From NCBI GenBank assembly GCA_050950285.1, contig JBMNHG010000002.1, forward strand, positions 504,654-568,653: 64,000 nucleotides of DNA, written 5' to 3'. This document shows positions 1 to 60,891 of the stretch, one piece after another (the first letter of the stretch is position 1; each line of letters starts with the position of its first letter). Under the pieces are notes generated by a model that worked only from the letters and a program-made list of their open reading frames with translations, was not told the DNA's origin and searched no databases. Origin of the DNA: Kiritimatiellia bacterium. GTDB lineage: Bacteria > Verrucomicrobiota > Kiritimatiellia > RFP12 > JBMNHG01. Made by a program: the position numbers and the translations under genes.

Positions 1-686
1 TCGCGGGCCATGCCGGGGAATTGCGCCTCTTCGAGCGCCACGGGTTGCGCGCGATGGCCTTCCAAGGCCGCCGGCACCGCTACGAAGGCGAAGGGTGGAC
101 CCCCGTGCTCGCGCCCGTGGAAATCGCCCGCAGGCTGGGCGCCCCCTCGCTTCTCCTCACGAACGCGGCGGGCGGCATCCGGGAGGATCTCTCGCCGGGG
201 CGTTTGATGGCCCTTCGCGACCATATAAACCTCACGGGGCTCAATCCGCTCCAGGGCCCGGTCGTGCCGGGATGGGGGCCGCGATTCCCCGACATGTCCG
301 AGGTGTACGACCCCGCCTTCCGCGCCGCCATGCGCGAACGGCTCCGGTCCGAAGGCGTCGAACTCTCCGAAGGCGTCTACGTCTACGTGGCGGGCCCGAG
401 CTTCGAAACGCCCGCCGAGATTCGCGCCTTCCGCCGGCTCGACGGCGACGCCGTGGGGATGTCCACGGTTCCCGAGGCCATCGTGGCGCACGCCATCGGC
501 ATGCGCGTGGCGGCCGTCAGCTGCATCACCAACTTCGCCGCCGGCCTGGGCGGATGCCGTCTCGGCCACGAGGACGTGCTCGAAACCTCGCGCGACAGCC
601 TGCCGCGCATGGGCGCCGTCCTGGACGCCTTCCTGCGCACGGTGGCGGAAAAAACGTGTCCAGCCGCAGAGGACGGAGTGCCATGA
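1..686 (+). CDS. Purine nucleoside phosphorylase (PNP/MTAP family), 5'-truncated by window edge
   Basis: Translation contains the PNP family-1 signature GPSFETPAEIRAFRRLDGDAVGMSTVPE, close to human/E. coli PunA-type PNP. The reading frame is open from the window start, so the N-terminus is missing. Confidence 0.85.
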   Translation, partial: AGHAGELRLFERHGLRAMAFQGRRHRYEGEGWTPVLAPVEIARRLGAPSLLLTNAAGGIREDLSPGRLMALRDHINLTGLNPLQGPVVPGWGPRFPDMSEVYDPAFRAAMRERLRSEGVELSEGVYVYVAGPSFETPAEIRAFRRLDGDAVGMSTVPEAIVAHAIGMRVAAVSCITNFAAGLGGCRLGHEDVLETSRDSLPRMGAVLDAFLRTVAEKTCPAAEDGVP

Positions 687-2800
687 GTTCGCCTGCCAAG
701 TTCGAAAAACGCTTCCTGCGCAAAGTGCGCGGCGAGGGGCGGCGCCGTCCGAAGAACCTCGTCTTCACCGCCCTGGGACGCGAGCGCACCTTCCAGGCCT
801 ACGACATCGAGGACGACACCTTCGTGCTCGAGAAGGACATCTGGCGTGCGCCGCATGACAACGCCCCCATCCTCGTGGTGGCCAAGTCCGTCCTCTCCCC
901 CTCCGCCCCCGGGCACATCTTCACCCTCACCTCCGGCAACCACAGCGTGGCCGCGCTCCCGCTTCTCTCCGGCAAGTTCTGGGACCTCGGCGGCCTGCCG
1001 CCCGAGAAGCGCAGCGAAGCGCTGAAGAATGCCGTCGTCTGCTCGAACCTCGTGGACGGCCGCATCGAAATCTCGCAGCGCGATGTTCCGATGGAGACCG
1101 TCGTGGACGCCGACTCCTGGTTGCGCTCCCACGGCTGGTCGCTCGCGGACGTGGTGCTGGCGGACCGCAAGGACGCCACTCTCGAACACTACCGCCGCCA
1201 AGGCCAGGAGTGGCGCATCAAGCCGCTTGCCTGGACGCGCAAGGAGATGGAGGCCGTGCTCGCCGCCGAACGCACCCGCATCCACTCCGCCCTCCGCTAC
1301 TACCGAAACGTGAAGGGCGTCCACTTCCTCACCTTCCCGGAATTCGCCCGCCTGCGCAGGATGGTTTCCGAAGATTTCGAAGCCTTCCGCGCCTGCCTCT
1401 CCGAAATCGCCGGCGTGCTCGAAGGCGCAAGCGTCTCGTTCCTGCGCGACCCGAAGCACTACGGCCACCACGAGGTGGAACTCTTCGGCGTGCGGCCCGC
1501 CTTCGCCCAGGAGGCCCTCGTCCCCGCCCTCGAGGAAATCGAGGCCGAATCCCGCGAAGGAAGCCTCTCCCCCGCCATGGCCGCCGTGCTCATGGACAAC
1601 GTCCTGCTCGCCTATCGCAACGCCCTCGAAACCCCTGCGCTGGCCGACGAATCCTCCGACGAATTCGTCGAAACGCTCTATCGGCACCTGACCGGCGAGG
1701 TCTACCTGAGCACCCCCGGCCAGGTGCTCCCCGCCTTCGACGGCCGCCTCTCCGCCCTCCCCGGCGCCACCTACAGCCACGGCCGCCCCGACTACCACCC
1801 CGGCGTCGACCCCCGCACGCTCGCCATCCTCAACTACATCGACTCGCTCCTCAGCCACAACGAGTCCATCGAGTACGCCAACGTCTACGAACTCCGCACC
1901 GACGACCCCCTCGCGATCGAACGCGGCCAGACGCGCGAAATCGTCTACAAGACCAATCGCGGCCCGCTCTGCAAGCGGCTCATCGAGAAGCGCCTCTCCC
2001 ACTCCGGCACGGGCTATGGATGCTACGTCCTCGCCCGCGTCCAGGCCTTCCAGGCCCTCGGCGTGGCCTACGGCGACCACCACCTGCTCTCCCGCCACGA
2101 CGGCCACATGGGCGACTTCCACTTCTACGTCCGCCAGCACTACCCCGGCGAAGCCTTCGGATCGCTTCCCCAGCAGCGCTTCCTCAAGAGCGGCGAGGTC
2201 GCCGACGGCGCCGAGGACCCCGAAATCGTCCTCGCCGTGGCGGCTCTCATGGGCACCGCGGCCGCACAGAACCTCGTCGTGAAACGCTACGTCTCCAAGG
2301 TCGGATCCGTCTGCTTCGGCGAAGGCAAGGAGATCATCGAATTCGCCTACGACGTGAACCAGGGGCGCGAAATGCCCGTGAGAGTCCGCCTCTGCTCCGT
2401 GCGCGGCACCCTCGGATGGCCCGACTTCGCGCAGACCGAGGAAAACCTCCAGACCTGCTTCGACATCTACATGACCTCCTTCGCGCGCGCCATGGTGAAC
2501 TACCTCGCCAAGCATCCCTCCGTGACGCTCCTGCAAATCGCCGACCGCTTCTGGGAAGGCTTCTCGCGAACCACCCGCGAACTCCACTTGAACTACACCT
2601 GCCAGTACGACCAGTTCGACCAGTTCGATCCCGGCACCCGGACGATCTTCAAGTTCAAGGAAAAATGGAGCTTCGCGCTCTGGGCCCTTGGACAACAGTT
2701 CCATCGCCTTCCCAAACTCCGGGAAATGTTCTACCTTCGCCTTCGCGCGCTCCTCGCCGCCGACCAGGCGCAGAAGACGCAAGCCGGAGAAACACGCTAA
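683..2800 (+). CDS. Hypothetical protein (~705 aa), no recognisable domain
   Basis: Long ORF with balanced, non-repetitive amino-acid composition. ATG at 683 overlaps the PNP stop codon (ATGA, translational coupling). The reverse-strand ORF 383..2953 is G/A/E/V-rich antisense noise. No signal peptide. Function not assignable from sequence. Confidence 0.6.
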   Translation: MSSPAKFEKRFLRKVRGEGRRRPKNLVFTALGRERTFQAYDIEDDTFVLEKDIWRAPHDNAPILVVAKSVLSPSAPGHIFTLTSGNHSVAALPLLSGKFWDLGGLPPEKRSEALKNAVVCSNLVDGRIEISQRDVPMETVVDADSWLRSHGWSLADVVLADRKDATLEHYRRQGQEWRIKPLAWTRKEMEAVLAAERTRIHSALRYYRNVKGVHFLTFPEFARLRRMVSEDFEAFRACLSEIAGVLEGASVSFLRDPKHYGHHEVELFGVRPAFAQEALVPALEEIEAESREGSLSPAMAAVLMDNVLLAYRNALETPALADESSDEFVETLYRHLTGEVYLSTPGQVLPAFDGRLSALPGATYSHGRPDYHPGVDPRTLAILNYIDSLLSHNESIEYANVYELRTDDPLAIERGQTREIVYKTNRGPLCKRLIEKRLSHSGTGYGCYVLARVQAFQALGVAYGDHHLLSRHDGHMGDFHFYVRQHYPGEAFGSLPQQRFLKSGEVADGAEDPEIVLAVAALMGTAAAQNLVVKRYVSKVGSVCFGEGKEIIEFAYDVNQGREMPVRVRLCSVRGTLGWPDFAQTEENLQTCFDIYMTSFARAMVNYLAKHPSVTLLQIADRFWEGFSRTTRELHLNYTCQYDQFDQFDPGTRTIFKFKEKWSFALWALGQQFHRLPKLREMFYLRLRALLAADQAQKTQAGETR

Positions 2801-2822
2801 CCCATCAGCCCCAAGGCATCGC

Positions 2823-4280
2823 ATGGCTGGAAACCGGAAACCCCCTATGGACGAAACCCACGCTCCCAAAGCCAAATCACGGCGGACGCCGAGCAAACAC
2901 GGCGGACGCTTCGCCCGAGTCACCGCCTGGCTGATCTTCCTGGGCGTTACCATCGGCTACCTCGTCCTGCGCACGAACGGGAAGTCGGACCTGGTGGACT
3001 TTGTCCACCGCTTCGTCCTCCGCGACATGCCCACGGTCCGCTTCGATCCGCCAAACCTCGACGCCTTCATGGAAGTTCGCGGCACCCATCTCGAAATCCT
3101 CTGGCACGGCGTCGCCGAGTTCGCCATCAAAAACTTCTCCGAACGCCGCGCGGACCGCTTGCTGAAAACCTTGAGCTGCGTCTGCGGCGGCCTCTCCGCC
3201 TCGTTGCTCTTCGCGTCGGTGCGTTGCATGATCCTGCTCTTCCTCCGCGGCACCTATCACAAAGCCAAGTCCCGCAAGGTCGCCGCATGGATCGGCGGCG
3301 TCGTGGCCGCCGGCGTCCTCGCCGTGAACCAGCCCGCGTGGATCGCCGTCGGCTGGCTGCGCCCCGAACTCTTCGACCTCGCCATCATGATGGTCGCCGT
3401 CTACTCGTTCGTCTACGCCGCCGCCACAGGGCGATCCCGCTATCTCTGCGTCTACGCATTCCTCTACGGGCTCATGCTCTTCGAGACCGGCGACCTCATC
3501 CGCCTGCTCCCGTTCTTCCTCGTCTTCACCCTCGTCCTCCTCGCCCGCATGGGCCAGGCGCACCTTCGTCAAGTGCTGATCCTCGGCGGCCTCTTCCTCC
3601 TCGGCGCCTGCCTCTACCTCGGACTCGTCTGGATCGAAGTCGAAAGCGGCCAAATCGACTTCACCACCGCCATGTCCGACACCAACCCCTGCTGGTTCGC
3701 CGTCGTGCGCCATGTGAAAAACCATGTCATCCGCTGGCCGAAACAGTCCGTTCACATGCTCTCCATCATGATGGCCATCGCCCCCTGGCTTGTGACCGTC
3801 GCCCTTGGCGCCTGGACGCTCGGCCGCCCGCCCCGCGAATCGGACATCCTCCTCCATCTCCTGCTCGCCGCCACCGTCGTAGTCGGCATTTCCGACTGGT
3901 CGATGTCCCCCTGGGGCATGATCGGCCCCATGATCAAGAAAGGCGAGGCCCTCCCCCTCCCCTGTCTCGCCCAGGCGCTCATGGCCTCGACCTGCGGCTA
4001 TCTCGTGGCCTGGGGCATCCTCCAGTCCGGAGGCAGCCTCATAAGCCGCGCCCCCGCCACCGAAGCCACCCGCGACGAGGCCGACGACGACCCCGACGCC
4101 TACTACCGCTCCCTCCACCTCCGCCTCGTCCATTATTTCGGCCGCCTCCTCGCCTGGGGCCTCCTGGCCTTCGTGGCCTACACCGGTCTCATGAACAGCC
4201 GCGGACGCGTCCGCTACGGCCTCATCGACGATCAGAAGGAGGACGCCATCAACATGAAGTTCTTCAGCCCCCGGACGTAA
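2823..4280 (+). CDS. Polytopic integral membrane protein (~485 aa), unknown function
   Basis: At least 9-10 hydrophobic helices (e.g. VTAWLIFLGVTIGYLVL, IGGVVAAGVLAV, LLPFFLVFTLVLLA, LILGGLFLLGACLYLGLVWI). Alternative start ATG at 2847. Lies directly downstream of the 705-aa hypothetical. Confidence 0.6.
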   Translation: MAGNRKPPMDETHAPKAKSRRTPSKHGGRFARVTAWLIFLGVTIGYLVLRTNGKSDLVDFVHRFVLRDMPTVRFDPPNLDAFMEVRGTHLEILWHGVAEFAIKNFSERRADRLLKTLSCVCGGLSASLLFASVRCMILLFLRGTYHKAKSRKVAAWIGGVVAAGVLAVNQPAWIAVGWLRPELFDLAIMMVAVYSFVYAAATGRSRYLCVYAFLYGLMLFETGDLIRLLPFFLVFTLVLLARMGQAHLRQVLILGGLFLLGACLYLGLVWIEVESGQIDFTTAMSDTNPCWFAVVRHVKNHVIRWPKQSVHMLSIMMAIAPWLVTVALGAWTLGRPPRESDILLHLLLAATVVVGISDWSMSPWGMIGPMIKKGEALPLPCLAQALMASTCGYLVAWGILQSGGSLISRAPATEATRDEADDDPDAYYRSLHLRLVHYFGRLLAWGLLAFVAYTGLMNSRGRVRYGLIDDQKEDAINMKFFSPRT

Positions 4281-4293
4281 CGAACCACGCTCC

Positions 4294-5040
4294 ATGCCGT
4301 CCTCCCCTGCCCTTTCCGACGCCCCCCCAAACGCACGGCGCTGGACGCTCGCCCTCGAACGCAGCTCGCGCCCCCCCTCCATGGCCCTCTTCCGCGGCCT
4401 GGAGTGCGTCGCCGGACGCGGCTTCCCGTCCATGGCGGCCCACGGCGCCACCGCCTGGGCCGGCGCCCTCCGCGACCTGCTCGACGAAACCGGCGTGCGC
4501 CCCTCGGAGCTCGCCCTCCTCGCCGTCGGGCTCGGCCCCGGCTCGTTCTCCGGCACCCGCTCCGCCATCGCCTTCCTCCACGGCGTCGGACTCCCCGCCC
4601 GCATCCCCCTCGCCGGCGTCGGCAGCGCCGCAGCCGCCGCCTTCGCAGCCGCACGCGCACTCCCCGCCGGACACACCGTGGCCGTCGCAGGAGACGCCCG
4701 CCGCAGCCGCTGGTGGCGCGCCACCTTCACCACCCTCGACGCGCCCGGCACCCCCTTCGGACGCCTCCTCCGCCGCGCACTCCCCGACCCCGTCCCGCCG
4801 TCGCACGACGCCTCGGACTTCTCGCTCGTCCACCCGGACGTCCCGTCGCTGCGCTCAGGCGTCCCCGACGGCGCCACGTGGCTCGAAATCGAAACCCTCG
4901 TCGCCCCCGCCCTCGCGTCGGCACTGACCGTCCCCACCGCCCGCCACGTCGGCGAGCTCGTCCTGTCCGAACCCGCCGCCGCGCTCCCCGCCCCCCTCCC
5001 CATCTACCTCCAGCCCGCCCTGCTCCCTCCCAAACGCTGA
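4294..5040 (+). CDS. tsaB: tRNA threonylcarbamoyladenosine biosynthesis protein TsaB (YeaZ-like)
   Basis: Motif LAVGLGPGSFSGTRSAIAFLHGV matches the TsaB/YeaZ GPGSFTGLRIG signature. Size ~248 aa. Confidence 0.75.
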   Translation: MPSSPALSDAPPNARRWTLALERSSRPPSMALFRGLECVAGRGFPSMAAHGATAWAGALRDLLDETGVRPSELALLAVGLGPGSFSGTRSAIAFLHGVGLPARIPLAGVGSAAAAAFAAARALPAGHTVAVAGDARRSRWWRATFTTLDAPGTPFGRLLRRALPDPVPPSHDASDFSLVHPDVPSLRSGVPDGATWLEIETLVAPALASALTVPTARHVGELVLSEPAAALPAPLPIYLQPALLPPKR

Positions 5041-5049
5041 TCCCGCCGC

Positions 5050-5075
5050 AAAAAAAACGGCGCGCCGTTTTTTTT
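5050..5075. terminator. Bidirectional rho-independent terminator (A8-CGGCGCGCCG-T8)
   Basis: Sequence GCAAAAAAAACGGCGCGCCGTTTTTTTTGC: a GC palindrome flanked by an A-run and a T-run, immediately after the tsaB stop. Confidence 0.8.
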
Positions 5076-5093
5076 GCCACCTTCGACCCGACC

Positions 5094-8000
5094 ATGACCA
5101 CCCTCCGGCGACATCCAGGAACTCGCGGGACGACGACGGCCCTCCTCCCGCTCGCCGTCGCCGCCGCCTGGTTTCTGGCGTCGCCCCGACCCCTTCCGGC
5201 CGCCGCCACCTACCAACCCTTCGCCCACCACGGCCTCGTGCGCGCCCGGGCCGACCTCTTCCCCGATGCCACGCGCTTCTCCGCCACGCTCCTCCCGACG
5301 GACGACGCCTCCCCCGAAGCCGCCGCGCCTGCCGCCTTCGCCGCCGCCACCCGGGACGCGGACACACTGACCCTCCTCGTCGGCGGATGGCCCATCCTCC
5401 CCCCGGGACGCTATGCCATCCAAATCCAGGGCTTTGCCGCCAACGGGGGCGAAGCCGGATCGCTCGTCGTCCCCGACGCCGTGGAACTCGCCCCGCGCCG
5501 CATCGACGTGGCCTTGGTGCTGGACGATTCCCACAGCATGCGCCACACCGACCCCTCCCGGCTCCGCATCGAGGCCGCGCGCGTCTTCGCCCGCATCGCC
5601 GCCACCCGCGGCGACGTCGCCACCCTCTCCATCGTCGGCTTCAGCCGCCGCCCCCGCCTGCTTCTCCCGCCCTCCCCGCCCGGCGATGCCGCCGCCCTCG
5701 ATGCCGCGCTCGCCAGGCTCTCCGCCAGCGGCAGCACGGACCTCGACGCCGCCCTCATCCTCGCCGCGTCGGAACTCGCCAGGCTTCCCGCCGATTCCCG
5801 CAAGGTGCTCGTCGTGCTCTCGGACGGCCGCGACGAACCCGGCGAGTACGCGAACGCCCACCTCCGCTGCGTCGCGCTCCGCTGGCCCATCTACACCGTC
5901 GGCTTCTCGGAGGACATCGACGAGGCCACGCTCCGCCGCATCGCCGACTCCACCGGCGGCACTTTCCATCGCGCCGACTCCTCCGGGCAACTCGCCGCCA
6001 TCTTCACGAAAATCGCCCGCGACCTCCACCGCAACGTCTCCCTCGGCGAATGGCCCGCCGGAGAAGGCACGTCCGTCACGATCCCCGTGGACGACACCGT
6101 CCGCTCGCTCTCCCTGACCCTGCTCGACCAGGAACCCGGCGCAGCCTGCTCCCTGATCGACCCTGTCGGCGTCTCCCGCGCCATGGCCTGTCTCCCCGGC
6201 GCCCGCGACGACGTCGCAGAGATCTTCGCCCCCGCCGCCGGCGAATGGACCCTCCGCGGCATCCATGGCCACGGCATCCTCTCCGTCCAGGCCGCAAGCG
6301 ACCTCGAACTCGTCGCCATCCCCCCCGCCGACACCCCCGTCCGACCCGGCGACCCCCTCGCCCTCTCGTGCGTGCTCCTCTCCGCCGACGGCCCCGTCCC
6401 CGGCGCCACCCTCGTCGCCCGCCTCGATCCGCACGCCACGGACTCCCGCCTCCCCGAATGGCCCGACACACCCTTCCCCCTCCGCGACGACGGACAGGAT
6501 GGAGACATCGCTCCATCCGACGGCGTCTATGCCCTCCGCCTCCCTGCCCCGGCCGCAGGCTCCGGCACCCTGCGCTTCCTCGCCACAGGCCATACCCAGG
6601 CGGGCTTCGCCTTCGAACGCCACGACTCGCTCCCCCTCTCCGTTCTCGACCCCGCTCCACCTCCCAACCTCCCCGGCATCGCCTGGCTCTCCCCGCGCCT
6701 CCCCGATCCCCTGCCCTCCCCGCGCGGCATCCGATCCACCCTCCCCGCCCCCCTTCCCGAAAGCCGCTTCCCGCCACGCGTCCTCTCCTCCCGCCTCGAC
6801 AACCCTTCCACCCCCCTCCCCGCCGCCCGGAACCTCCTGCCCCTCCCCGCCACGACGCCCCCTCCCCTCCACCTTTCGTTCCCGCCCCCCACGCCCATCG
6901 GAGAGCTCCTTCCTCCGCCCGAGTTCCTCCCCGTCGCCCCGGACCCGTCGTTCTTCGAACGCTACAACTGGCTCCACATCCTCCTGCTCGTCTGCCTGCT
7001 CGCCCTCATCGCCTTCTTCCTCGTCCACCGGATGACGAAGCTCAAGGGCCGGCACGGACGGATGCTCAAGTACTTCGTGGGTTCCGTCGCCGCACACGCC
7101 CTCCTGCTCCTGCTCACGCTGGACTTGCTCGTGCAAGTGCGCGCCGTCGAGCTCGAGGACATCTCGCCCGGACTCGCCGTCTCCCTCGAAGCCCTGGAAG
7201 GCGCCACCGGAGTGCGCCTCGCCCCGCCCGGCCCCATCGCCGGCATCCGGGAACAGGAGCGCCAAACCACGCTCGAACGCGTCGAGGCGCGCATCGCCCG
7301 GGAAAACGAACGCCGTCGCGCCACACGCCATCCCGACCTCCCCACGCCGGAAACCTCCCTCCCCGCCCCCCACCTCGAAAACGGGGAAGTGCCGTCCGGC
7401 ACCCTCGCGCATCTCGAATCGAAAATTCCAGACGTCCCGCCCGAATCGGACCTCCCCTCCCCGCACGAGACGTCCGCAACCATCGTCCCGCACCTCGCGG
7501 AACCTTCGGAGCCCGGCGATACGCCCGTGGCCCGTGCAACGGACTTCGCACGCCTCGAAGCCGCCCGCTCCGGCAACGACGTTCCCCACCCCTCTCCCAC
7601 CATCCTGCCCGACGCATCGGAAGCCTTGGACAACGCCGCGATCGAAGCCCCCACCTTCGACGTCGCACATCGCAACCCGGCCCCCCTCCAGCAACTCGGA
7701 CCCGCCGCTGCCGCAAAAGCCACGGACGTCGCATGGCTCGACCTCCCGGACGCACCCTCCCACACCCCCGCTTCCATCGCTCTCGCCTTGCACCGCGCCG
7801 ACCCCGGCGCGGACGGCGGCTCCGCCTCCATCCGCACAGCCAGCGTGGCACGCCGCGAAACACCCCGCTCCGCAGGCGGCGCCACACGCAACGCGCCGAA
7901 CTCCTCCCGCGCTTCCCTCCCGGACGCGCCGATCGCTCCGTCCGGAGGCGCTCCCGACGCCCCCGTCTTCGCCGACGCGGGCGACGCGCACGCCGCGCAC

Positions 8001-10544
8001 GCCAGCCTCCGCGCCATCGCGCCCGGCGGAGCCGCAGGCGTCCCGGACGTGGCACGGCTCGACCTTCCAGCCGCGCCAGCACACGCCGACACCTCCGCCG
8101 CACCCGCGCAACATCGCGCCGACCCCGGCGCGGACGGCGGCTCCGCCTCCATCCGCACAGCCAGCGTGGCACGCCGCGAAACACCCCGCTCCGCAGGCGG
8201 CGCCGCACGCAACGCGCCGAACTCCTCCCGCGCTTCCCTCCCGGACGCGCCGATCGCTCCGTCCGGAGGCGCTCCCGACGCCCCCGTCTTCGCCGACGCG
8301 GGCGACGCTCCCGCCGCGCACTCCAGCCTCCGAGCCATCGCGCCCGGCGGAGCCGCAGGCGTCCCGGACGTGGCACGGCTCGACCTTCCAGCCGCGCCAG
8401 CACACGCCGACACCTCCGCCGCACCCGCGCAACATCGCGCCGACCCCGGCGCGGACGGCGGCTCCGCCTCCATCCGAACCGCCAGCGTGGCACGCCGCGA
8501 AACACCCCGCTCCGCAGGCGGCGCCGCACGCAACGCGCCGAACTCCTCCCGCGCTTCCCTCCCGGACGCGCCGATCGCTCCGTCCGGAGGCGCTCCCGAC
8601 GCCCCCGTCTTCGCCGACGCGGGCGACGCTCCCGCCGCACACGCCAGCCTCCGAGCCATCGCGCCCGGCGGAGCCGCAGGCGTCCCGGACGTGGCACGGC
8701 TCGACCTTCCAGCCGCGCCAGCACACGCCGACACCTCCGCCGCACCCGCGCAACATCGCGCCGACCCCGGCGCGGACGGCGGCTCCGCCTCCATCCGAAC
8801 CGCCAGCGTGGCACGCCGCGAAACACCCCGCTCCGCAGGCGGCGCCGCACGCAACGCGCCGAACTCCTCCCGCGCTTCCCTCCCGGACGCGCCGATCGCT
8901 CCGTCCGGAGGCGCTCCCGACGCCCCCGTCTTCGCCGACGCGGGCGACGCTCCCGCCGCGCACTCCAGCCTCCGAGCCATCGCGCCCGGCGGAGCCGCGG
9001 GCGTCCCGGACGTCGCACGGCTCGACCTTCCAGCCGCGCCAGCACACGCCGCCACCTCCGTCGCACCCGCGCAACATCGCGCCGACCCCGGCGCGGACGG
9101 CGGCTCCGCCTCCATCCGCACAGCCAGCGTGGCACGCCGCGAAACACCCCGGCTCCGCAGCGGCACGCACGGCGCATCACGCCTCTCCCGCGCCGCCCTT
9201 CCGGAAGCGACGGCCGGCACCCTCGGCACGGCCCCCCCGCCGCCGCTCCCCGATGTCGAGGACGACGCCCCTCCCGCCCCAGGCCCGCTCCGGGAAATTG
9301 CCGGTGGCGATTTCGCGATATCCATCGGCGAAGGAGGGCGAGGCTCCGTCCGCACCACCATCGGAATGGCCCGCTATGGCGGGGACTGGGATTGCGCGCG
9401 TTCGGCGATGATGTTCCTCGGCCACCAACTCAAGGAACGAACCCGCCTCGCCTTCATCGCAAACGACTCCGTAATCGCCCTGGACAGTCCGGACCTCTCC
9501 AAACTGCCCTTCGTGTACCTCACCGGCCATAACGACTTCCGCTTCACCGACGCGGAAATCGCAAACCTCCGCGCCTACCTCCACGCCGGCGGCCACCTCT
9601 GGGCGGACGACTCCACCCACTTCAACGACGACTCTTTCGACACCGCCTTCCGCCGCGAAATCGCCCGCGTCCTCCCCGATGCGCCCCTCGTGCGGCTCGG
9701 CCCCGAATTCGCCGGCTTCCACACGGGCTACGACCTCTCCAACGGCTACAAAGGCTATGCCATCCCCCCCGGCGACAAGTACCGTCTCGACTACATCGAA
9801 GGCATCGCCATCGGCGGCCGTGTCGCAGTGGTCTACACCCGCAACGACTACGGCGACGGCCTCAACATCGACGCGCACACCCATCCGCTCAAGGTCTCCC
9901 TCACCGACCTCTCCCCCGCCGAAATGCAGGAAGGCGCCACGCGCATGGGCATCAACCTCGCCCTCTATTTCCTCACCTCCGCCGACACGCGCACCGCGAA
10001 GTTCGTCGACCGTACCTCCGCGACCCTGCGCAACGCGAAAGACCCCTCCCTGCCCGTCGCGCCAGAAGGCTCCGCACGGCCATGGGCGAACCTCGTCGAA
10101 GGCCCGTGGGAACACGAGCCCTGGAGCGATGCCGGAACCCGAAACGCGGGCGGTGGCGTGGCAACGCTCGACTTCACCCTCGGCAAGAACGAGAAGGTGG
10201 CGTTCTCCACCGTGTGCGAGCCCGCACTGGCCATCTCGACGCGTGACGCGCTCGTGGCCGACGTGACAAGCGACCTGCAGTGCGCGGCGCGCATCGCCGT
10301 CGGCCTCGAAATCGGCGGCCGATACTTCGAATCGACCCCCGCCTTCGTGAAGCCCGGAAGCAACGTCGTGGTCTTCCACTGCGGCGAAGCCACCTTCAAG
10401 AGCGAGGCGGGGAACTGGAATTACGCCGACCCTCTCCCCTCCCCCGCCTCCGTGTCGAAACTCACGCTGCTCGTCTACTCCCCCTCCTCCGGCCGCATCC
10501 ACCTCCGGAACGCCCGGATCATCGAGACCGCACGGGATCCCTGA
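5094..10544 (+). CDS. Giant VWA-domain / single-TM / tandem-repeat / DUF4159-domain protein (~1816 aa)
   Basis: N-terminal signal-like segment (LLPLAVAAAWFLA). VWA domain with a MIDAS-like DxSxS motif (IDVALVLDDSHSM ... VLVVLSDGRDE ... TVGF). Pro-rich linker, then TM helix WLHILLLVCLLALIAFFLVHRM. Then 4.5 copies of a 107-aa repeat. Then a DUF4159-like domain (FVYLTGHNDFRFTDAEIANLRAYLHAGGHLWADDSTHFNDDSFDTAFRREIARVLPD). The ORF upstream of ATG 5094 is R-rich out-of-frame noise overlapping tsaB. Confidence 0.75.
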   Translation: MTTLRRHPGTRGTTTALLPLAVAAAWFLASPRPLPAAATYQPFAHHGLVRARADLFPDATRFSATLLPTDDASPEAAAPAAFAAATRDADTLTLLVGGWPILPPGRYAIQIQGFAANGGEAGSLVVPDAVELAPRRIDVALVLDDSHSMRHTDPSRLRIEAARVFARIAATRGDVATLSIVGFSRRPRLLLPPSPPGDAAALDAALARLSASGSTDLDAALILAASELARLPADSRKVLVVLSDGRDEPGEYANAHLRCVALRWPIYTVGFSEDIDEATLRRIADSTGGTFHRADSSGQLAAIFTKIARDLHRNVSLGEWPAGEGTSVTIPVDDTVRSLSLTLLDQEPGAACSLIDPVGVSRAMACLPGARDDVAEIFAPAAGEWTLRGIHGHGILSVQAASDLELVAIPPADTPVRPGDPLALSCVLLSADGPVPGATLVARLDPHATDSRLPEWPDTPFPLRDDGQDGDIAPSDGVYALRLPAPAAGSGTLRFLATGHTQAGFAFERHDSLPLSVLDPAPPPNLPGIAWLSPRLPDPLPSPRGIRSTLPAPLPESRFPPRVLSSRLDNPSTPLPAARNLLPLPATTPPPLHLSFPPPTPIGELLPPPEFLPVAPDPSFFERYNWLHILLLVCLLALIAFFLVHRMTKLKGRHGRMLKYFVGSVAAHALLLLLTLDLLVQVRAVELEDISPGLAVSLEALEGATGVRLAPPGPIAGIREQERQTTLERVEARIARENERRRATRHPDLPTPETSLPAPHLENGEVPSGTLAHLESKIPDVPPESDLPSPHETSATIVPHLAEPSEPGDTPVARATDFARLEAARSGNDVPHPSPTILPDASEALDNAAIEAPTFDVAHRNPAPLQQLGPAAAAKATDVAWLDLPDAPSHTPASIALALHRADPGADGGSASIRTASVARRETPRSAGGATRNAPNSSRASLPDAPIAPSGGAPDAPVFADAGDAHAAHASLRAIAPGGAAGVPDVARLDLPAAPAHADTSAAPAQHRADPGADGGSASIRTASVARRETPRSAGGAARNAPNSSRASLPDAPIAPSGGAPDAPVFADAGDAPAAHSSLRAIAPGGAAGVPDVARLDLPAAPAHADTSAAPAQHRADPGADGGSASIRTASVARRETPRSAGGAARNAPNSSRASLPDAPIAPSGGAPDAPVFADAGDAPAAHASLRAIAPGGAAGVPDVARLDLPAAPAHADTSAAPAQHRADPGADGGSASIRTASVARRETPRSAGGAARNAPNSSRASLPDAPIAPSGGAPDAPVFADAGDAPAAHSSLRAIAPGGAAGVPDVARLDLPAAPAHAATSVAPAQHRADPGADGGSASIRTASVARRETPRLRSGTHGASRLSRAALPEATAGTLGTAPPPPLPDVEDDAPPAPGPLREIAGGDFAISIGEGGRGSVRTTIGMARYGGDWDCARSAMMFLGHQLKERTRLAFIANDSVIALDSPDLSKLPFVYLTGHNDFRFTDAEIANLRAYLHAGGHLWADDSTHFNDDSFDTAFRREIARVLPDAPLVRLGPEFAGFHTGYDLSNGYKGYAIPPGDKYRLDYIEGIAIGGRVAVVYTRNDYGDGLNIDAHTHPLKVSLTDLSPAEMQEGATRMGINLALYFLTSADTRTAKFVDRTSATLRNAKDPSLPVAPEGSARPWANLVEGPWEHEPWSDAGTRNAGGGVATLDFTLGKNEKVAFSTVCEPALAISTRDALVADVTSDLQCAARIAVGLEIGGRYFESTPAFVKPGSNVVVFHCGEATFKSEAGNWNYADPLPSPASVSKLTLLVYSPSSGRIHLRNARIIETARDP
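7730..9165 (+). repeat. In-frame tandem repeat, 321-bp unit x ~4.5, near-identical copies
   Basis: GCCGACCCCGGCGCGGACGGCGGCTCCGCCTCC recurs at 7797, 8118, 8439, 8760 and 9081 (period 321 bp, i.e. 107 aa: ADPGADGGSASIRTASVARRETPRSAGG...). Copies 2-4 differ by only a few bases. Confidence 0.9.
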
Positions 10545-10545
10545 T

Positions 10546-10569
10546 GGCCGGCGCACGATGCGCCGGCCT
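10546..10569. terminator. GC hairpin between convergent genes (GGCCGGCGCA-cgat-TGCGCCGGCC)
   Basis: Perfect 10-bp inverted repeat with a 4-nt loop, lying in the 57-bp spacer between the stop of the VWA gene (10544) and the stop of the minus-strand gene (10602). Confidence 0.6.
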
Positions 10570-10601
10570 CCGATTCTGCGGCGACGGAAGCGGAAGGCGG
10601 C

Positions 10602-11927
10602 TCAGGGGAAGACCACGTCGAGCGCGGCATCCGCAACCCGGATGTCGCATGCCGCGTCGGAGCCAGCCACCCGCACCGACGCAAAGGTTCCGCGAATCGC
10701 CGCGGCCTCGACCACGCGGAACGCGCCATGGGGCGCCATGCCCTCCGGCACGACGATTTCCAGCACGGTGGCGGCTTCGTCGTCGATGGAGAGGACGCCC
10801 GTCCCCTCCGTGGTTCCGGCGAGCTGCAAGAGGGCGGCATCCGCGTCCGTCCCAAGCGTCGCGCGCAAGACCGACTCCTTGCCTTCGCCCGCGTTGGCGA
10901 GGACGAGGTCGACGTCCGTCATCGCGGCGCCGCCCTCCACTTCGAGCCGGCCCGCGTTCCGGAAGAGAAGGCGGCGGCCTTCGGCGTTTCCGGTTGAATT
11001 GCGGTAGGCGAACGCGCCCGAGACCCTTGCGGTCGCACCCGGACGGTTCTCGATGCGCGAACTGGTCGCATCCGCCTTGTAGAAGCTGCCTTCCCCGGCG
11101 CTGTTCGGCAGGCGTTCCAGCACCGCGCCATCCGTGAGCCGAAGATCCCCGAAATTGTCGATGCCGGTGAACCCGCCGTGATTCCCTTGGACGGAGAGCC
11201 GCCCGCCGAGGATGAATTCGCCCTGGTTGGAGACCTTCGCTTCGCGGTTGTTGAAGGGATGGCCGGAGCCGTTGGTCGCAGGTGGCCACCTCGAGCGCGG
11301 CAATCGGATTGGACGCTGAAGACGGAGCCTGCGGCATTCTCGACCGTCGCCTGGCTGCCCACGAGGCGGAAGGCGCCGCCCGGCGTGATCGTGAACGAGG
11401 CGGCGGAGGTTCCGTCGCCGTTGACCAGGCGGCGCTTCCCGCATCCGTTGGGATGGGGTCCAGCCGAAGCGGACCGGCCTGGTGCTGTCGGAACCGGTCA
11501 CCGACAGGGTGCCGACGTTCGCCAGTTCGTCCTCCGATCCCCAGGCGGCGGCGTGGCCGATCTGCGACGGCGCCTCGAAGACCGCCTCGCCGGAGTTGCG
11601 GAAGCGCTGGAGCGCGAGGTGGCAGCCCTTGCCCAGCGAAAACGTCCCGGAGGTGATGAAGTGCGGAATCCAGAGGCCGCGGCCGGTGGAGGACATGAAG
11701 CCGATGATCGCACCGTCGCGCATCCGCCAGATGCCTCGGTTCCGGATCGCGCGGGAACCGACGTTGTTGCCGTCCGCCGCCCAGTCGAAGAGGATGGAGG
11801 CGCCGTCCTGGTCGACTTCGCCGTTCTCCGTGTTCTCGACCAGCGCATTGCCCTGGGCGGCCGCGATAGCGGAGGAGCGTCTCCTGCGAAACGGGCTGGA
11901 GGATGGCGTCCGGGACACCTTCGACGG
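10602..11927 (-). pseudogene. Frameshift-disrupted 3' portion of the upstream giant secreted-protein gene (or sequencing-error-riddled C-terminal region)
   Basis: Protein-like sequence continues from the 11928..14703 ORF, but only by hopping between all three minus-strand frames: near 11990 (GIVGVHV -> MPRVTVEGVPDAILQPVSQ), near 11870 (-> SAIAAAQGNALVENTENGEV...WTPSQ), near 11440 (-> LVNGDGTSAASFTITPGGAFRLVGSQATVENAAGSVFSVQS), and near 11300 (-> ATNGSGHPFNNREAKVSNQGEF...DVVFP). R-rich junk appears wherever a single frame is followed. Confidence 0.5.
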
Positions 11928-14922: not shown

Positions 14923-15135
14923 TACTTCTTCCTTGTTTCGTAATCGGTTAGCGGCAGGGGGTGAGGGGGCGATGCAATTCAAGTGCGAGGGGTAGCAAAA
15001 AAATCGTGTTTTTTGTGTTTGCACGAACGTTTGTAATATGATCCTGGCCAACTTTGTTCCGTTGACAACCTTCGCATAGGTTTGCAACAATCAGTTCCAC
15101 ATTCTTCACGTTGTTTGCCAGGGAGGCAGTTGTCC

Positions 15136-19815: not shown

Positions 19816-19944
19816 AGAAATTCTCAAAAAAAAAACGGCGCGCCGCGAAGTGGACCCCCATTTCGCGGCGCGCCGCTTTGCGGCGGCAGAGGAAGAAGCC
19901 AACGCGACCCGGCGGGCGGTCTCTTTGGCCGCCGCAGTCCGTCT
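19681..19944 (+). repeat. Direct repeat copy A (~260 bp, >97% identical to 25441..25704)
   Basis: Covers the last ~135 bp of CDS 15136..19815 plus ~130 bp downstream, including the terminator hairpin. Identical apart from single-base differences (e.g. GTTGTCGGC vs GTTGCCGGC). Confidence 0.85.
19826..19880. terminator. Palindromic terminator-like hairpin (A10-CGGCGCGCCGCGAA-12nt loop-TTCGCGGCGCGCCG)
   Basis: Perfect 14-bp stem. The A-run upstream gives a U-run for minus-strand transcripts; CTTT follows on the plus strand. Confidence 0.55.
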
Positions 19945-20022
19945 TATTACTTCTTCCTTGTTTCCATCGCAATGACTCTGTACATTTTTGTTTTCAATTC
20001 ACTCCCAAGGAGCATGTTGTTT

Positions 20023-25575: not shown

Positions 25576-25704
25576 AGAAATTCTCAAAAAAAACGGCGCG
25601 CCGCGAAGTGGACCCCCATTTCGCGGCGCGCCGCTTTGCGGCGGCAGAGGAAGAAGCCAACGCGACCCGGCGGGCGGTCTCTTTGGCCGCCGCGGTCCGT
25701 CGCT
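25441..25704 (+). repeat. Direct repeat copy B (pairs with 19681..19944); partial third copy at 28725..28775
   Basis: Near-identical 3' CDS end plus downstream hairpin (hairpin at 25586-25640). A truncated version of the same hairpin follows the next gene (AAAAACGGCGCGCCGCGAAGTGGACCCCCATTTCGCGGCGCC). Confidence 0.85.
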
Positions 25705-25770
25705 CCCCCGCGCGATTGTTGACGAAGAAACGGCGTTTTGATACGGTGCCCGAATAACAAGGAGAGTTCC

Positions 25771-28713: not shown

Positions 28714-28969
28714 GCGGCAGCCTGGAAAAACGGCGCGCCGCGAAGTGGACCCCCATTTCGCGGCGCCGGCAATTCTGGGACTGCAACGAGCGTGGGCGTC
28801 CCCGCCATCCCGTGGACAAGCAGGCGCTCATCCCTTGTCTCCCGGTCCCCTCCGGCGCCCCCTTCCCGGCCAGCCAAACATCCTGGAACTCCTGGTTTCT
28901 CTGGAACGAAGCGGGTGAAATATGCTACGGTGCGGAAAACATCATCCTGAAAGGCCGGCCAACGTGAAC

Positions 28970-51389: not shown

Positions 51390-51416
51390 GGAAGAATTCG
51401 GGCGGCAGGGGCCCGA

Positions 51417-59167: not shown

Positions 59168-59980
59168 ATGAAACGAGGAGTCCTTCTCTTGTCCTGGGCC
59201 GCCGTGCTGGCCGTTCCGTCCTTGCGCGCCGCGAGCATGACGCCGGAGGCGGCACTGGGCGCACTGCTCTCCCGGCATGCCTCGCAGCTCGGGGCGGACG
59301 ATGCCGCCGGCGCCGCCGAAAGTTGCAGGCTGGTCCTGGACTCCGGCGCACTCGGCCGCTTCACCCCCGTGGCCGAATCGCTGCTGGGCGCGGATCTCCT
59401 CGCCCTGGGCCATGCCGAGGAGGGCGCGAAACGCCTCGGGCGGCTGCTGGTCCCCAACAGCGCGAACGCGGATGCCATCGTCCGCCTGGCGGACATCCAG
59501 GCGCGCCGCTGGCTGTCGCGCCTCGACCGGGAGGAGGTCGTGGCGGCGCTCAAGGCCTACTACGCCGCCAACGTCCGCTATCCCGACACGCTCGAACCCC
59601 TCCGCTCCCTCCGGCCGCCGCCCCCGCTCCGCGACCGCTGGGGCGAGCCGTGGAACTACCGGCTCGCGAACTTCCGGGCGTTGAAGGGCGTCTCCGCGCA
59701 GCGCTACACGCTCGAATCCCGCAACACGGGGCGCCTCTCCGACCTCGCCAAAGCGCTCCAGGCGCGCGCCACCTCCCCTGGGCCGGAAGGCTGGAGGGTC
59801 TCGCGCAGCCGCGAGGCCGGCGCCATCCTGGTCGAAACCGCCGAAGGGCGCAACTCCATCGTCCGCGAGGGCGACCTCCACGCCGGCTTCCGCTTCGCCG
59901 GATTCGCAGGAAGGTCCGCACTCTTCTCCTCGGGCGACGCCTGGTTCCTTCTCCCCCTCGCCCCCGGAGGCACGCCATGA
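59168..59980 (+). CDS. Secreted hypothetical protein (~270 aa)
   Basis: Signal peptide MKRGVLLLSWAAVLAVPSLRAAS. Stop overlaps the start of the DUF58 gene (ATGA). Confidence 0.55.
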   Translation: MKRGVLLLSWAAVLAVPSLRAASMTPEAALGALLSRHASQLGADDAAGAAESCRLVLDSGALGRFTPVAESLLGADLLALGHAEEGAKRLGRLLVPNSANADAIVRLADIQARRWLSRLDREEVVAALKAYYAANVRYPDTLEPLRSLRPPPPLRDRWGEPWNYRLANFRALKGVSAQRYTLESRNTGRLSDLAKALQARATSPGPEGWRVSRSREAGAILVETAEGRNSIVREGDLHAGFRFAGFAGRSALFSSGDAWFLLPLAPGGTP

Positions 59981-60891
59981 ACGAAGGCGACAGCGGCCTG
60001 GACTTCTTCCTGAACGCCGCCCAGCGCCGCAGGCTGGCGCGCCTTGCCCTGCAGTCGCGCGACGTGGTCGAAGGCAACCTCGCCGGACGCCACCGGAGCC
60101 CTTCGCGCGGCCAGAGCACCGAATTCGCCGACCATCGCCCCTACATCGCCGGCGACGACCTCAAGCGCCTCGACTGGAAGGTCCTCGGGCGCACCGAGCG
60201 CTACTACATCCGCCGCTACCAGGACGAGACGAACCTGCGCGTGTACCTGCTGGTGGACCGCAGCGCGTCGATGGGATACGCCTCCGACCCCTCGCTCCCC
60301 ACCAAGTTCCACTATGCCTGCCAACTCGCCGCCGCCCTGGGCTACGTGGTGGTGCGCGGGCGCGACGCCGTGGGATGGCAGGTCTTTTCCGACAAGCTCG
60401 ACGTCTCCCTCCCCGCGCGCAACTCGCTGCTCGAACTCAACAATGCGCTGAAGACGCTTCGCGCCCTCGAACCCGCCGGCGCCACCTCCACCGCGATGGC
60501 GCTGAACCTCGTGGCCGAATCCATCCAGCGCCGCGCGCTGGTGGTCGTCATCTCCGACCTGCTGGACGACGCCGCCGAGGTCACGAAGGCCCTCGCGCAC
60601 TTCCGCAAGAAGCACCACGACGTGATCGTCTTCCAGGTGCTGGACCCCCGGGAGCTCGACCTCGACTTCCGCCGCGGCGGCGAATTCGAGGACCTGGAGA
60701 CCGGCGAAACGATCACCGCCGACCCCCGTTCCGTGGCGGACGCCTACCAGGAGATCTTCGGCGAATTCCGCGAACGCTACCGCAAGGCCTGCTCCGAAAT
60801 GCGGATCGACTACTGCCTCGCCCCCACCAGCGAACCCCTCGACACCTTCGCCCGCGCCTACCTCGAGGATCGCAGGAGGCGATCGCGCTGA
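59977..60891 (+). CDS. DUF58-domain protein (MoxR/Bat-operon-type VWA-like)
   Basis: Characteristic DUF58 motif GRHRSPSRGQSTEFADHRPYIAGDDLKRLDWKVLGRTERYYIRRYQDE and a VWA-like remainder (LLVDRSASM ...). Confidence 0.75.
   Translation: MNEGDSGLDFFLNAAQRRRLARLALQSRDVVEGNLAGRHRSPSRGQSTEFADHRPYIAGDDLKRLDWKVLGRTERYYIRRYQDETNLRVYLLVDRSASMGYASDPSLPTKFHYACQLAAALGYVVVRGRDAVGWQVFSDKLDVSLPARNSLLELNNALKTLRALEPAGATSTAMALNLVAESIQRRALVVVISDLLDDAAEVTKALAHFRKKHHDVIVFQVLDPRELDLDFRRGGEFEDLETGETITADPRSVADAYQEIFGEFRERYRKACSEMRIDYCLAPTSEPLDTFARAYLEDRRRRSR

What the first reader, a model, noticed from the sequence alone, without database searches (positions are those of the whole stretch)
5094..10544. Unusual fusion: VWA domain + TM + 4.5 near-identical 107-aa tandem repeats + DUF4159 domain in one 1.8-kaa protein
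VWA and DUF4159 domains normally occur as separate proteins in MoxR/Bat-type (aerotolerance-like) operons. Here they are fused in a single polypeptide with a Pro-rich linker, one TM helix and a long Ala/Pro/Gly/Arg-rich repeat region. Repeat copies 2-4 are almost base-identical (period 321 bp), implying recent expansion and likely copy-number variability (slipped-strand or recombinational). The repeat region is also an obvious site for assembly collapse. A DUF58 (Bat-operon) gene is present elsewhere (59977..60891) without an adjacent MoxR ATPase, so the canonical module appears dispersed or remodelled in this genome.
Basis: partly seen in the sequence, partly recalled or inferred. Interest (0 to 1): 0.6.

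Follow-up and report, generated by a model that had tools for sequence, protein, structure and literature searches.

The report
Giant TonB-like envelope tether protein
The 1,816-residue VWA–repeat–DUF4159 protein is real, but it belongs to a conserved family of giant inner-membrane proteins of the Planctomycetes–Verrucomicrobia–Chlamydiae (PVC) group that usually sit behind an ExbB–ExbD proton motor, so it looks like an unusual TonB/TolA-type periplasm-spanning tether rather than a remodelled MoxR/Bat aerotolerance module.

Summary
Window 5094..10544 (+) encodes one 1,816-aa protein with a VWA domain, a DUF4159 domain and a 321-bp tandem array of 4.3 copies that are 96–99% identical.

- There is a signal peptide and two transmembrane helices forming a hairpin, not one helix.
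- A CBM-like β-jelly-roll domain follows DUF4159.
- The fusion is not unique. More than 100 clusters (at 50% identity), 1.2–2.9 kaa long, share it, all from PVC metagenome-assembled genomes (MAGs).

The MoxR/Bat interpretation is not supported. None of 58 related loci carries DUF58, and the window has no MoxR.

Instead, about 23 of 31 loci with upstream sequence show the order (TPR)–ExbB–ExbD–this gene. TM2 carries a near-invariant S-x3-H motif, as in TonB/TolA, followed by a conserved strand-like segment and then a long disordered spacer. The spacer varies from 369 to 1,295 aa and often contains about 100-aa repeats.

I read the protein as a motor-coupled, periplasm-spanning transducer. Its head is DUF4159 plus the CBM-like domain instead of a TonB C-terminal domain, and it carries an extra periplasmic VWA adhesin arm.

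In this window's subclade the gene is uncoupled from ExbBD. A 2025 paper describes different, smaller "vWA force transducers" in the same operon context, so this is a new variant of a known kind.

The parts
5048..5077 (.). Perfect 30-nt palindrome GCAAAAAAAACGGCGCGCCGTTTTTTTTGC. It lies between the TsaB-like gene (4294..5040) and the big gene, and looks like a bidirectional terminator that isolates the gene from upstream transcription.
   Evidence: Read directly. The consensus terminator scan did not call it. The upstream gene matches TsaD/TsaB (E 1.5e-8).
5094..5207 (+). Signal peptide (aa 1-38; the hydrophobic core is ALLPLAVAAAWFLA, followed by AAA|TY).
   Evidence: Sequence. Homologues have classical AXA signal peptides at the same place. 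Export itself is inferred.
5205..5489 (+). N-terminal β-sandwich domain (aa ~38-132).
   Evidence: AlphaFold model mb24b72c6265c, pLDDT 82, strands E3-E97.
5502..6026 (+). VWA domain (aa ~137-311). It has a complete MIDAS motif: D144-x-S146-x-S148, T215 and D244, all invariant in the family.
   Evidence: Pfam. Invariant columns. Fold matches to VWA adhesins, integrin I-domains and BatA/BatB VWA domains.
6036..6644 (+). Two Ig-like β-sandwich domains (aa ~315-517). The first includes a 'choice-of-anchor X' motif at aa 461-490.
   Evidence: Model. NCBIfam NF041940, E 2.2e-7.
6654..6968 (+). Pro-rich disordered linker (aa ~521-625).
   Evidence: pLDDT below 50. Sequence.
6969..7028 (+). TM1 (aa 626-645), predicted to run from outside to inside.
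   Evidence: Hydropathy 2.9. Conserved across the family.
7029..7070 (+). Short basic cytoplasmic loop HRMTKLKGRHGRMLKY (aa 646-659).
   Evidence: Sequence. The topology follows from the positive-inside rule and is inferred.
7071..7133 (+). TM2 (aa 660-680). It carries S664-x3-H668, a TonB/TolA-like motor-docking motif.
   Evidence: S664 is invariant and H668 is conserved in at least 90% of 17 sequences. H, or N, is retained in distant Verrucomicrobia and Planctomycetota members. hhalign against TonB/TolA N-termini gives probability 85%, E 6e-6 over 18 columns; the earlier cruder alignment gave 54%.
7134..7238 (+). Conserved juxtamembrane segment (aa 681-715, VQVRAVELEDISPGLAVSLEALEGATGVRLAPPGP). 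It is a candidate 'motor box' strand for ExbD contact.
   Evidence: Conservation. A second subgroup has P-V-T-V-M-T-V here, which resembles E. coli TonB P-I-S-V-T-M-V. The functional reading is inferred.
7239..9353 (+). Ala/Pro/Gly/Ser/Arg/Asp-rich spacer (aa ~716-1420), about 700 aa.
   Evidence: Composition is A 24%, P 13%, G 9%. Spacer length in homologues ranges from 369 to 1,295 aa.
7791..9152 (+). Tandem array within the spacer: four 321-bp (107-aa) units plus a 78-bp partial unit.
   Evidence: The same copy number is seen in L003.
9348..9977 (+). DUF4159 α/β domain (aa ~1419-1628). It has an invariant DDSTH at aa 1505-1509, where ordinary DUF4159 proteins have ACCG.
   Evidence: Pfam E 1.7e-38. 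Foldseek to PDB 4i66 (Hoch_4089) gives E 3.6e-12, TM-score 0.82. Comparison with P0212-P0214.
10071..10526 (+). C-terminal β-jelly-roll domain (aa ~1660-1811) resembling carbohydrate-binding modules.
   Evidence: Model pLDDT 80-93. Foldseek hits to CBM11, CBM29, CBM16, CBM22 and the GH50 N-terminal domain at E 1e-6 to 1e-4.

Best explanation
The gene encodes a member of a conserved PVC-superphylum family of giant inner-membrane proteins. I interpret the family as TonB/TolA-like periplasmic force transducers or tethers.

Shown:
- The N-terminal region looks like a signal peptide.
- It is followed by a β-sandwich, a MIDAS-competent VWA domain and two Ig-like domains.
- Two hydrophobic helices are joined by a basic loop.
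- The C-terminal 1,130 residues comprise the spacer, DUF4159 and a CBM-like domain.

Inferred topology: both large arms are periplasmic, and the two helices form a hairpin in the inner membrane.

Inferred mechanism:
- TM2, through its S664-x3-H668 face, docks on the periphery of an ExbB5-ExbD2-type proton motor, as TonB His20 and TolA His22 do.
- The conserved segment just after TM2 contacts the ExbD periplasmic domain.
- Proton-motive force is converted into pulling or rotation, which the ~700-aa disordered spacer passes to the C-terminal head.
- The head (DUF4159 plus a CBM-like β-jelly-roll) engages a target at or near the outer membrane. That target is probably a glycan or the co-encoded ~1,000-aa TPR protein.
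- The VWA arm, held at the inner membrane by TM1, binds a second ligand through its metal site.
- The 107-aa tandem repeats set spacer length. They expand and contract by unequal recombination.

In this genome's subclade the gene has become monocistronic, so any motor must be supplied from elsewhere in the genome.
For: Synteny. ExbB (PF01618) and ExbD (PF02472) lie immediately upstream on the same strand in L001, L002 and L005. An HMM tally finds the same in about 23 of 31 distinct loci that have upstream sequence, and a ~1,000-aa TPR gene often precedes them. In L001 the ExbD gene overlaps the start of this gene by 4 nt. The ExbD proteins keep the transmembrane Asp (PLIDVVFLLLIFF).

Motif. 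S664 is invariant and H668 at least 90% conserved. H or N is kept in distant members. From my own knowledge, Asn can replace His20 in E. coli TonB. Profile-profile alignment places this S-x3-H on that of TonB/TolA (probability 85%, E 6e-6).

Juxtamembrane segment. It is conserved, and a second subgroup has a TonB-like PVTVMTV strand there.

Spacer. It is a low-complexity Ala/Pro-rich stretch of highly variable length (369-1,295 aa), analogous to domain II of TonB/TolA.

Head. It is a globular C-terminal module with many invariant residues, with folds assigned.

Precedent. PMC12204202 (2025) proposes non-TonB heads (vWA) on SHLS-bearing anchors downstream of TPR-tolQ-tolR in PVC. It also reports 'tolQ-tolR-???- No TolA found' in a Lentisphaerae genome.
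Against: - The window's own copy, and its nearest relatives P0001, P0002 and P0003, have no ExbB/ExbD next to them. No motor gene is present in the 64-kb window.
- The TonB/TolA similarity is a short motif. An HMM of the hairpin finds no TonB or TolA chain in the PDB.
- The anchor is a hairpin rather than an N-terminal single helix.
- The spacer is 3-10 times longer than in known transducers.
- No TonB_C or TolA_C domain is present.
- No complex model or experiment was possible.
- ExbB/ExbD genes are common, and adjacency does not prove physical coupling.
Confidence: 0.55

Rival explanations
1. Passive envelope tether or adhesin. The protein is simply anchored in the inner membrane by a hairpin. 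It displays a VWA adhesin arm and a long flexible stalk with a glycan-binding head, for example to organise exopolysaccharide, peptidoglycan or outer-membrane contacts, with no energy input. The ExbB/ExbD neighbourhood would then reflect co-regulation or another partner.
For: The window subclade lacks adjacent motor genes and has a different neighbour in each genome. The VWA-plus-Ig arrangement resembles pilus-tip adhesins PitA, SpaC and Mfa5. The head has a CBM-like fold. The spacer is far longer than a force-transmitting linker needs to be.
Against: This reading does not explain why an S-x3-H(N) face in TM2 and the juxtamembrane segment are kept across phyla, including in the uncoupled subclade. 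It also does not explain the tight, same-strand, sometimes overlapping ExbD-gene junction in about three quarters of loci.
Confidence: 0.27
2. One reading: a remodelled MoxR/Bat (aerotolerance-type) module. VWA and DUF4159 components that normally act with a MoxR AAA+ ATPase and DUF58 have been fused, and the partners are dispersed in the genome.
For: The VWA domain is structurally close to BatA/BatB VWA domains 4jdu and 3ibs and weakly matches BatA-type NCBIfam models. A DUF58 gene exists at 59977..60891. A standalone DUF4159 gene sits next to a GATase1_like membrane protein in one metagenomic contig.
Against: No DUF58 is found in any of 58 related loci. No MoxR or AAA_3 is found in the window. 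No BatA_N domain is present. The conserved neighbours are ExbB/ExbD/TPR. The VWA here is exported behind a signal peptide, not preceded by the Bat double-TM anchor.
Confidence: 0.06
3. Assembly or annotation artefact. The long ORF or its repeat number would be produced by misassembly or by high-GC ORF inflation.
For: The region is 72-74% GC and has several overlapping long ORFs. Repeats this similar are prone to collapse, and many relatives are fragments.
Against: Full-length orthologues with the same domain order exist in dozens of independent assemblies. Codon-position GC fits the + frame. A second contig has the same copy number.
Confidence: 0.03

Closest known systems
TonB and TolA periplasmic force transducers (with ExbB-ExbD / TolQ-TolR motors)
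   Same: - A membrane helix oriented N-in, C-out carries S-x3-H.
- A conserved segment follows the helix.
- A long low-complexity spacer leads to a globular C-terminal head.
- At family level the gene sits directly after exbB-exbD, often with a TPR gene. This recalls CpoB in tol-pal and TtpD in the Vibrio TonB2 system (the latter two from my own knowledge).
   Different: - The helix is the second limb of a hairpin, preceded by a 590-aa exported VWA/Ig arm.
- The spacer is 370-1,300 aa rather than about 100-260 aa.
- The head is DUF4159 plus a CBM-like domain, not TonB_C or TolA domain III.
- There is no detectable global sequence homology.
- The window's copy is not linked to a motor.
'vWA force transducers' of PVC bacteria (Tichowtungia aerotolerans type; Mol Biol Evol 2025, PMC12204202)
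   Same: Both occur in PVC bacteria. Both have the TPR-tolQ-tolR operon context, an SHLS-type His in the anchor helix, a VWA domain in the protein, and a proposed third class of motor-driven transducers.
   Different: - The published proteins are about 475 aa with an N-terminal helix, a ~100-aa linker and a C-terminal vWA, and they come in pairs with two TolR-like genes.
- Here the VWA lies on the other side of the membrane hairpin and the transduced head is DUF4159 plus a CBM-like domain.
- There is no sequence similarity.
- This architecture is not mentioned in the paper or its supplement (no occurrence of DUF4159).
BatA/BatB VWA proteins of MoxR-DUF58-Bat operons
   Same: A MIDAS-type VWA domain with a similar fold, in a membrane-anchored envelope protein.
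   Different: No MoxR, DUF58 or BatA_N is present. The topology and neighbours are different.
Ordinary DUF4159 proteins (PF13709; structure 4i66, Hoch_4089)
   Same: The same α/β fold (TM-score 0.82). Long identical stretches are shared, for example FDTAFRREIARVLPD.
   Different: Ordinary members are 230-260-aa or ~500-aa (tandem) secreted proteins with an ACCG motif. Here the domain is the tip of a 1.8-kaa membrane protein, carries DDSTH instead, and is followed by a CBM-like domain.

Membership tests
TonB/TolA-type force transducers | Anchor helix with the S-x3-H (SHLS) motor-docking motif | tested here: met
   S664 is invariant and H668 at least 90% conserved. H or N is retained in distant members. 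hhalign places it on the TonB/TolA motif at probability 85%, E 6e-6 over 18 columns. The L and S of the full SHLS motif are not conserved.
TonB/TolA-type force transducers | Conserved β-strand ('motor box') in the disordered stretch after the helix | tested here: inconclusive
   A conserved segment ISPxLAVxxxA lies after TM2, and a subgroup has PVTVMTV, similar to TonB PISVTMV. No structural or complex test was possible.
TonB/TolA-type force transducers | Genetic linkage to ExbB/ExbD or TolQ/TolR | tested here: met
   Met at family level: about 23 of 31 loci. Not met for the window's own copy or for P0001, P0002 and P0003.
TonB/TolA-type force transducers | C-terminal TonB_C (PF03544) or TolA domain III | tested here: not met
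   No such Pfam hit at E up to 1. The head is DUF4159 plus a CBM-like domain.
TonB/TolA-type force transducers | Single N-terminal TM helix with a short cytoplasmic N-terminus | tested here: not met
   The motif helix is TM2 of a hairpin that follows a 625-aa exported region.
MoxR/DUF58/Bat VWA system | Adjacent MoxR (AAA_3) and DUF58 genes | tested here: not met
   No DUF58 in 58 related loci. None is listed in the Pfam contexts. The window has no MoxR.
MoxR/DUF58/Bat VWA system | BatA_N double-TM N-terminal domain before the VWA | tested here: not met
   No PF07584 hit. The N-terminus is a signal peptide followed by a β-sandwich.
PVC 'vWA force transducers' (PMC12204202) | N-terminal SHLS helix, ~100-aa linker and C-terminal vWA domain; homology to the Tichowtungia transducers | tested here: not met
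   The domain order is different, and BLAST of Tichowtungia transducer 1 against the protein and all loci finds nothing.
DUF4159 (PF13709) | Match to the family HMM above the gathering score, with the fold of 4i66 | tested here: met
   132.6 bits against a cut-off of 25.9. Foldseek E 3.6e-12.
VWA domain with MIDAS | DxSxS...T...D metal-site residues | tested here: met
   D144, S146, S148, T215 and D244 are invariant in 17 sequences.

The most novel reading that the evidence does not exclude
This family is a third, undescribed architecture of proton-motor-driven envelope force transducer in PVC bacteria, and possibly the functional stand-in for the TolA that could not be found next to tolQ-tolR in Lentisphaerae and Kiritimatiellota. 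On this reading DUF4159, a domain matched by more than 4,600 representative sequences and with no known role, is the force-receiving head. A CBM-like tip grips an envelope glycan. A second, VWA/MIDAS arm on the same polypeptide makes it a two-armed device. Recombining ~100-aa repeats tune the reach of the tether.
Probability: 0.3. Interest if true: 0.8.

Novelty: new variant of a known kind. Interest (0 to 1): 0.6.

Why it matters
- DUF4159 has a solved structure (4i66) and thousands of members but no function. The only paper that mentions it is a Pfam database paper. Finding it as the distal head of an ExbBD-linked, S-x3-H-anchored giant protein gives it a first testable context.
- It widens the newly proposed set of non-TonB, non-TolA clients of 5:2 proton motors.
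- It offers a candidate for the unidentified gene after tolQ-tolR in Lentisphaerae that is noted in PMC12204202.
- It provides a natural series of spacer lengths (370-1,300 aa, changing by whole repeat units) with which to ask how tether length relates to envelope geometry.
- For annotation, it shows that 'VWA + DUF4159' should not automatically be read as a Bat/MoxR system.

Tried and rejected
- ExbB, ExbD and the TPR gene in the window: tblastn with three operon sets found nothing, and Pfam scans of essentially all large ORFs found none.
- MoxR next to DUF58: three frames or strands of 58.4-60.0 kb gave no Pfam family.
- HMM of the hairpin region against all PDB sequences: only chance transmembrane matches, with no TonB or TolA.
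- Homology to the published Tichowtungia vWA transducers: none.
- Homology of repeat units across subclades: only marginal (z 2.4-2.8), against z 15-35 within one subclade. A common ancestral unit is therefore not shown, although periods cluster at 97-108 aa.
- DUF4159 literature: only a Pfam database paper.
- Context of standalone DUF4159 genes: uninformative.
- The consensus promoter/terminator scan found nothing useful.
- I asked whether the ~500-aa DUF4159 proteins carry a TonB-like anchor. They do not. They are secreted tandem DUF4159 proteins.
Full report
**1. What is in the sequence**

Window 5094..10544 (+) is a single ORF of 1,816 codons. Its frame has the codon-position GC pattern of the real genes in this ~66% GC window (GC3 0.82). 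The long antisense and out-of-frame ORFs over it are high-GC shadows.

Pfam confirms VWA at aa 138-305 (E 1.6e-13; VWA_2 5.7e-14) and DUF4159 at aa 1425-1627 (E 1.7e-38, 132.6 bits against a cut-off of 25.9).

Tandem Repeats Finder reports 7794..9171, period 321, 4.3 copies, 98% matches. Read in frame, there are four full 107-aa units (7791..9074), 96.3-98.8% identical at the DNA level, followed by a 26-aa partial unit. The stretch before the array is only a faint relative.

A JGI metagenome contig (L003) is 99.88% identical to window 1..11223. It differs by 3 mismatches and 9 small indels and has the same number of units. Whether it is a fully independent assembly is unknown.

**2. Corrections to the anatomy**

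- Hydropathy shows two helices, aa 626-645 and 660-680, joined by the basic loop HRMTKLKGRHGRMLKY. There is also an N-terminal signal-peptide-like segment. Homologues have textbook AXA signal peptides at the same place.
- An AlphaFold model of aa 36-575 (pLDDT 82, pTM 0.76) gives a β-sandwich, a VWA domain, two Ig-like β-sandwiches and a disordered Pro-rich tail.
- Its nearest solved folds are a bacterial VWA protein (4fx5), pilus-tip adhesins (PitA, SpaC, Mfa5), integrin I-domains, ANTXR2 and the BatA/BatB VWA domains.
- The MIDAS residues D144, S146, S148, T215 and D244 are invariant in the family.
- A model of aa 1395-1816 (pLDDT 75) shows the DUF4159 α/β domain. It superposes on PDB 4i66 (Hoch_4089; E 3.6e-12, TM-score 0.82). 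A helical connector and a well-predicted β-jelly-roll follow. The jelly-roll's best matches are carbohydrate-binding modules CBM11, 29, 16, 22 and 28 and the N-terminal domain of GH50 agarases.
- The inferred topology puts both large arms in the periplasm, with a hairpin in the inner membrane.

**3. The fusion is a family, not an oddity**

- A search of 5.8 billion proteins returned 17 full-length proteins (1,476-2,645 aa) with VWA plus DUF4159.
- A scan of one genome per species found 53 loci. All are MAGs labelled Lentisphaerae, Victivallales, Kiritimatiellia, Verrucomicrobia or Planctomycetota.
- An exhaustive profile search of 1.84 billion representatives found 191 hits at E below 1e-30. 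About 110 of them cover the whole DUF4159 plus jelly-roll module, and the complete ones are 1,190-2,914 aa long.
- No cultured organism appeared.

**4. Genomic context**

Precomputed Pfam annotation of three homologous loci instead shows MotA_ExbB and ExbD immediately upstream on the same strand. A ~1,000-aa TPR protein lies before them in two of the three, and in L001 the ExbD gene overlaps the start of this gene by 4 nt.

I built HMMs from these neighbours and searched all ORFs of 58 loci.

- About 23 of 31 distinct loci that have upstream sequence carry ExbB-ExbD directly upstream.
- One locus has the cluster 7 kb away on the other strand.
- Seven loci lack it.
- No locus contains a DUF58 homologue.

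The ExbD proteins keep the transmembrane Asp.

The window itself is one of the exceptions. Its upstream gene is TsaB-like, followed by a perfect 30-nt palindrome. No ExbB, ExbD, TPR partner or MoxR is detectable anywhere in the 64 kb. Its closest relatives P0001, P0002 and P0003 are likewise uncoupled, each with different neighbours.

**5. TonB/TolA-like features**

- In the 17-sequence alignment S664 is invariant and H668 nearly so. Both lie in TM2, within the pattern K-Y-F-x-x-S-x-x-x-H.
- In distant Verrucomicrobia and Planctomycetota members the hairpin and basic loop persist. The His is kept or replaced by Asn, and the Ser is sometimes Ala or Thr. From my own knowledge, His20 is the one essential side chain of the E. 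coli TonB anchor and Asn can substitute for it.
- A profile of TM2 and its downstream segment aligns its S-x3-H onto that of a TonB/TolA N-terminal profile. That profile used E. coli sequences from memory and sequences printed in the supplement of PMC12204202. The result was probability 85%, E 6e-6 over 18 columns. A cruder first attempt gave 54%. This is a motif-level match only: an HMM of the hairpin finds no TonB or TolA chain in the PDB.
- After TM2 there is a conserved segment (VVxLExISPxLAVxxxA). In a second subgroup it reads PVTVMTV or IVTIMTV, reminiscent of E. coli TonB PISVTMV, the strand now called the motor box (PMC12204202).
- Then comes an Ala/Pro/Gly-rich spacer of 369-1,295 aa, and then the globular head.

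**6. The repeats**

Most family members have their own tandem units in the spacer, with periods of 97-108 aa (or 185-196 aa) and 85-100% internal identity.

P0006 and P0007 have near-identical flanks and differ by exactly one 101-aa unit. This shows copy-number change between near-identical strains, or collapse in one assembly.

Units are clearly homologous within one subclade (z 15-35) but only marginally between the window, P0003 and P0002 (z 2.4-2.8). Why the periods cluster near 100 aa is therefore unexplained.

As a rough estimate of my own, a random coil of about 700 residues has an end-to-end distance of roughly 20-25 nm. That is about the width of a periplasm, so the length is not absurd for a spanning tether.

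**7. Literature**

DUF4159 appears in only one paper of the library, a Pfam database paper.

[quoted passage not shown] These have an SHLS helix, a ~100-aa linker and a C-terminal vWA domain. In PVC bacteria they lie downstream of a TPR gene, tolQ and two tolR-like genes. The study noted 'tolQ-tolR-???- No TolA found' for a Lentisphaerae genome.

The published Tichowtungia proteins are ~475 aa and share no sequence similarity with this protein. The paper's supplement does not mention DUF4159. The present family therefore shares the operon logic but has a different architecture.

**8. Interpretation**

Best-supported reading (about 0.55): a TonB/TolA-like, ExbBD-coupled tether. Its transduced head is DUF4159 plus a CBM-like domain, and it carries an additional periplasmic VWA adhesin arm.

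- Shown: domain content, conservation, synteny and the motif.
- Inferred: topology, motor docking, force transmission and glycan binding.

Main rival (about 0.27): a passive tether or adhesin. The uncoupled state in this window's subclade and the extreme spacer length favour it. It does not explain why the His face is kept.

The Bat/MoxR reading (about 0.06) fails its context tests. An artefact (about 0.03) is excluded for the gene, though not strictly for the exact copy number.

**9. Verdict**

The finding is a new variant of a known kind. It is of moderate to high interest to people who work on Ton/Tol-type motors and PVC envelopes, and it gives DUF4159 its first functional context.

Noticed in passing
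window 5048-5077: A perfect 30-nt palindrome GCAAAAAAAACGGCGCGCCGTTTTTTTTGC lies between the TsaB-like gene and the big gene. It looks like a bidirectional terminator, but the consensus scan did not call it.
   Followed up: partly
window 58417-59976: About 1.5 kb directly upstream of the DUF58 gene (59977..60891) has long ORFs in several frames. None has a Pfam family, and there is no MoxR where one would be expected.
   Followed up: partly
window 9606-9620 (aa 1505-1509) compared with P0212-P0214: Ordinary secreted DUF4159 proteins are tandem double domains with an ACCG (Cys-Cys) motif after a β-strand. The giant family has an invariant DDSTH at that position, although the flanking sequence (FDTAFRREIARVLPD) is identical. 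This suggests a changed or lost active site.
   Followed up: partly
P0006 vs P0007; P0182-P0208: Two near-identical orthologues differ by exactly one 101-aa repeat unit. Most database relatives of the C-terminal module are truncated ORFs on 1-5 kb contigs, which suggests assemblies routinely break in the spacer.
   Followed up: partly
spacers of P0002, P0003, P0006-P0012 and the window (7239-9353): Repeat periods cluster at 97-108 aa in different subclades, even though unit sequences are not demonstrably homologous across subclades. This is unexplained.
   Followed up: partly
L003 14231-15440: The 99.9%-identical JGI contig carries small indels that frameshift the DUF4159 region of its gene call (P0001, 1,720 aa). 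This is probably sequencing error rather than a pseudogene.
   Followed up: partly
window 4001-10000: GC skew is strongly negative here (-0.25 to -0.35). I attribute this to the Ala/Pro-rich coding of the + strand (an inference, not tested). A 1,388-aa antisense shadow ORF lies at 5004..9170.
   Followed up: no
window 15037-31441 and 46667-55249: The first stretch is a run of giant secreted proteins (1,593, 1,920, 997 and 841 aa) with DUF1565, Laminin_G_3, Gly_rich_2 and GDSL-like domains. The second is a cluster of GH71, DUF5696/GH101-like and FGE-sulfatase genes. Together they suggest a polysaccharide-degrading lifestyle.
   Followed up: no
L031 1-5981; L044 22235-24973: L031 has TPR-ExbB-ExbD followed by a shorter protein in which no VWA was detected before DUF4159. 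L044 has the TPR-ExbB-ExbD cluster 7 kb downstream on the opposite strand. These are variants of the operon that I did not examine further.
   Followed up: no
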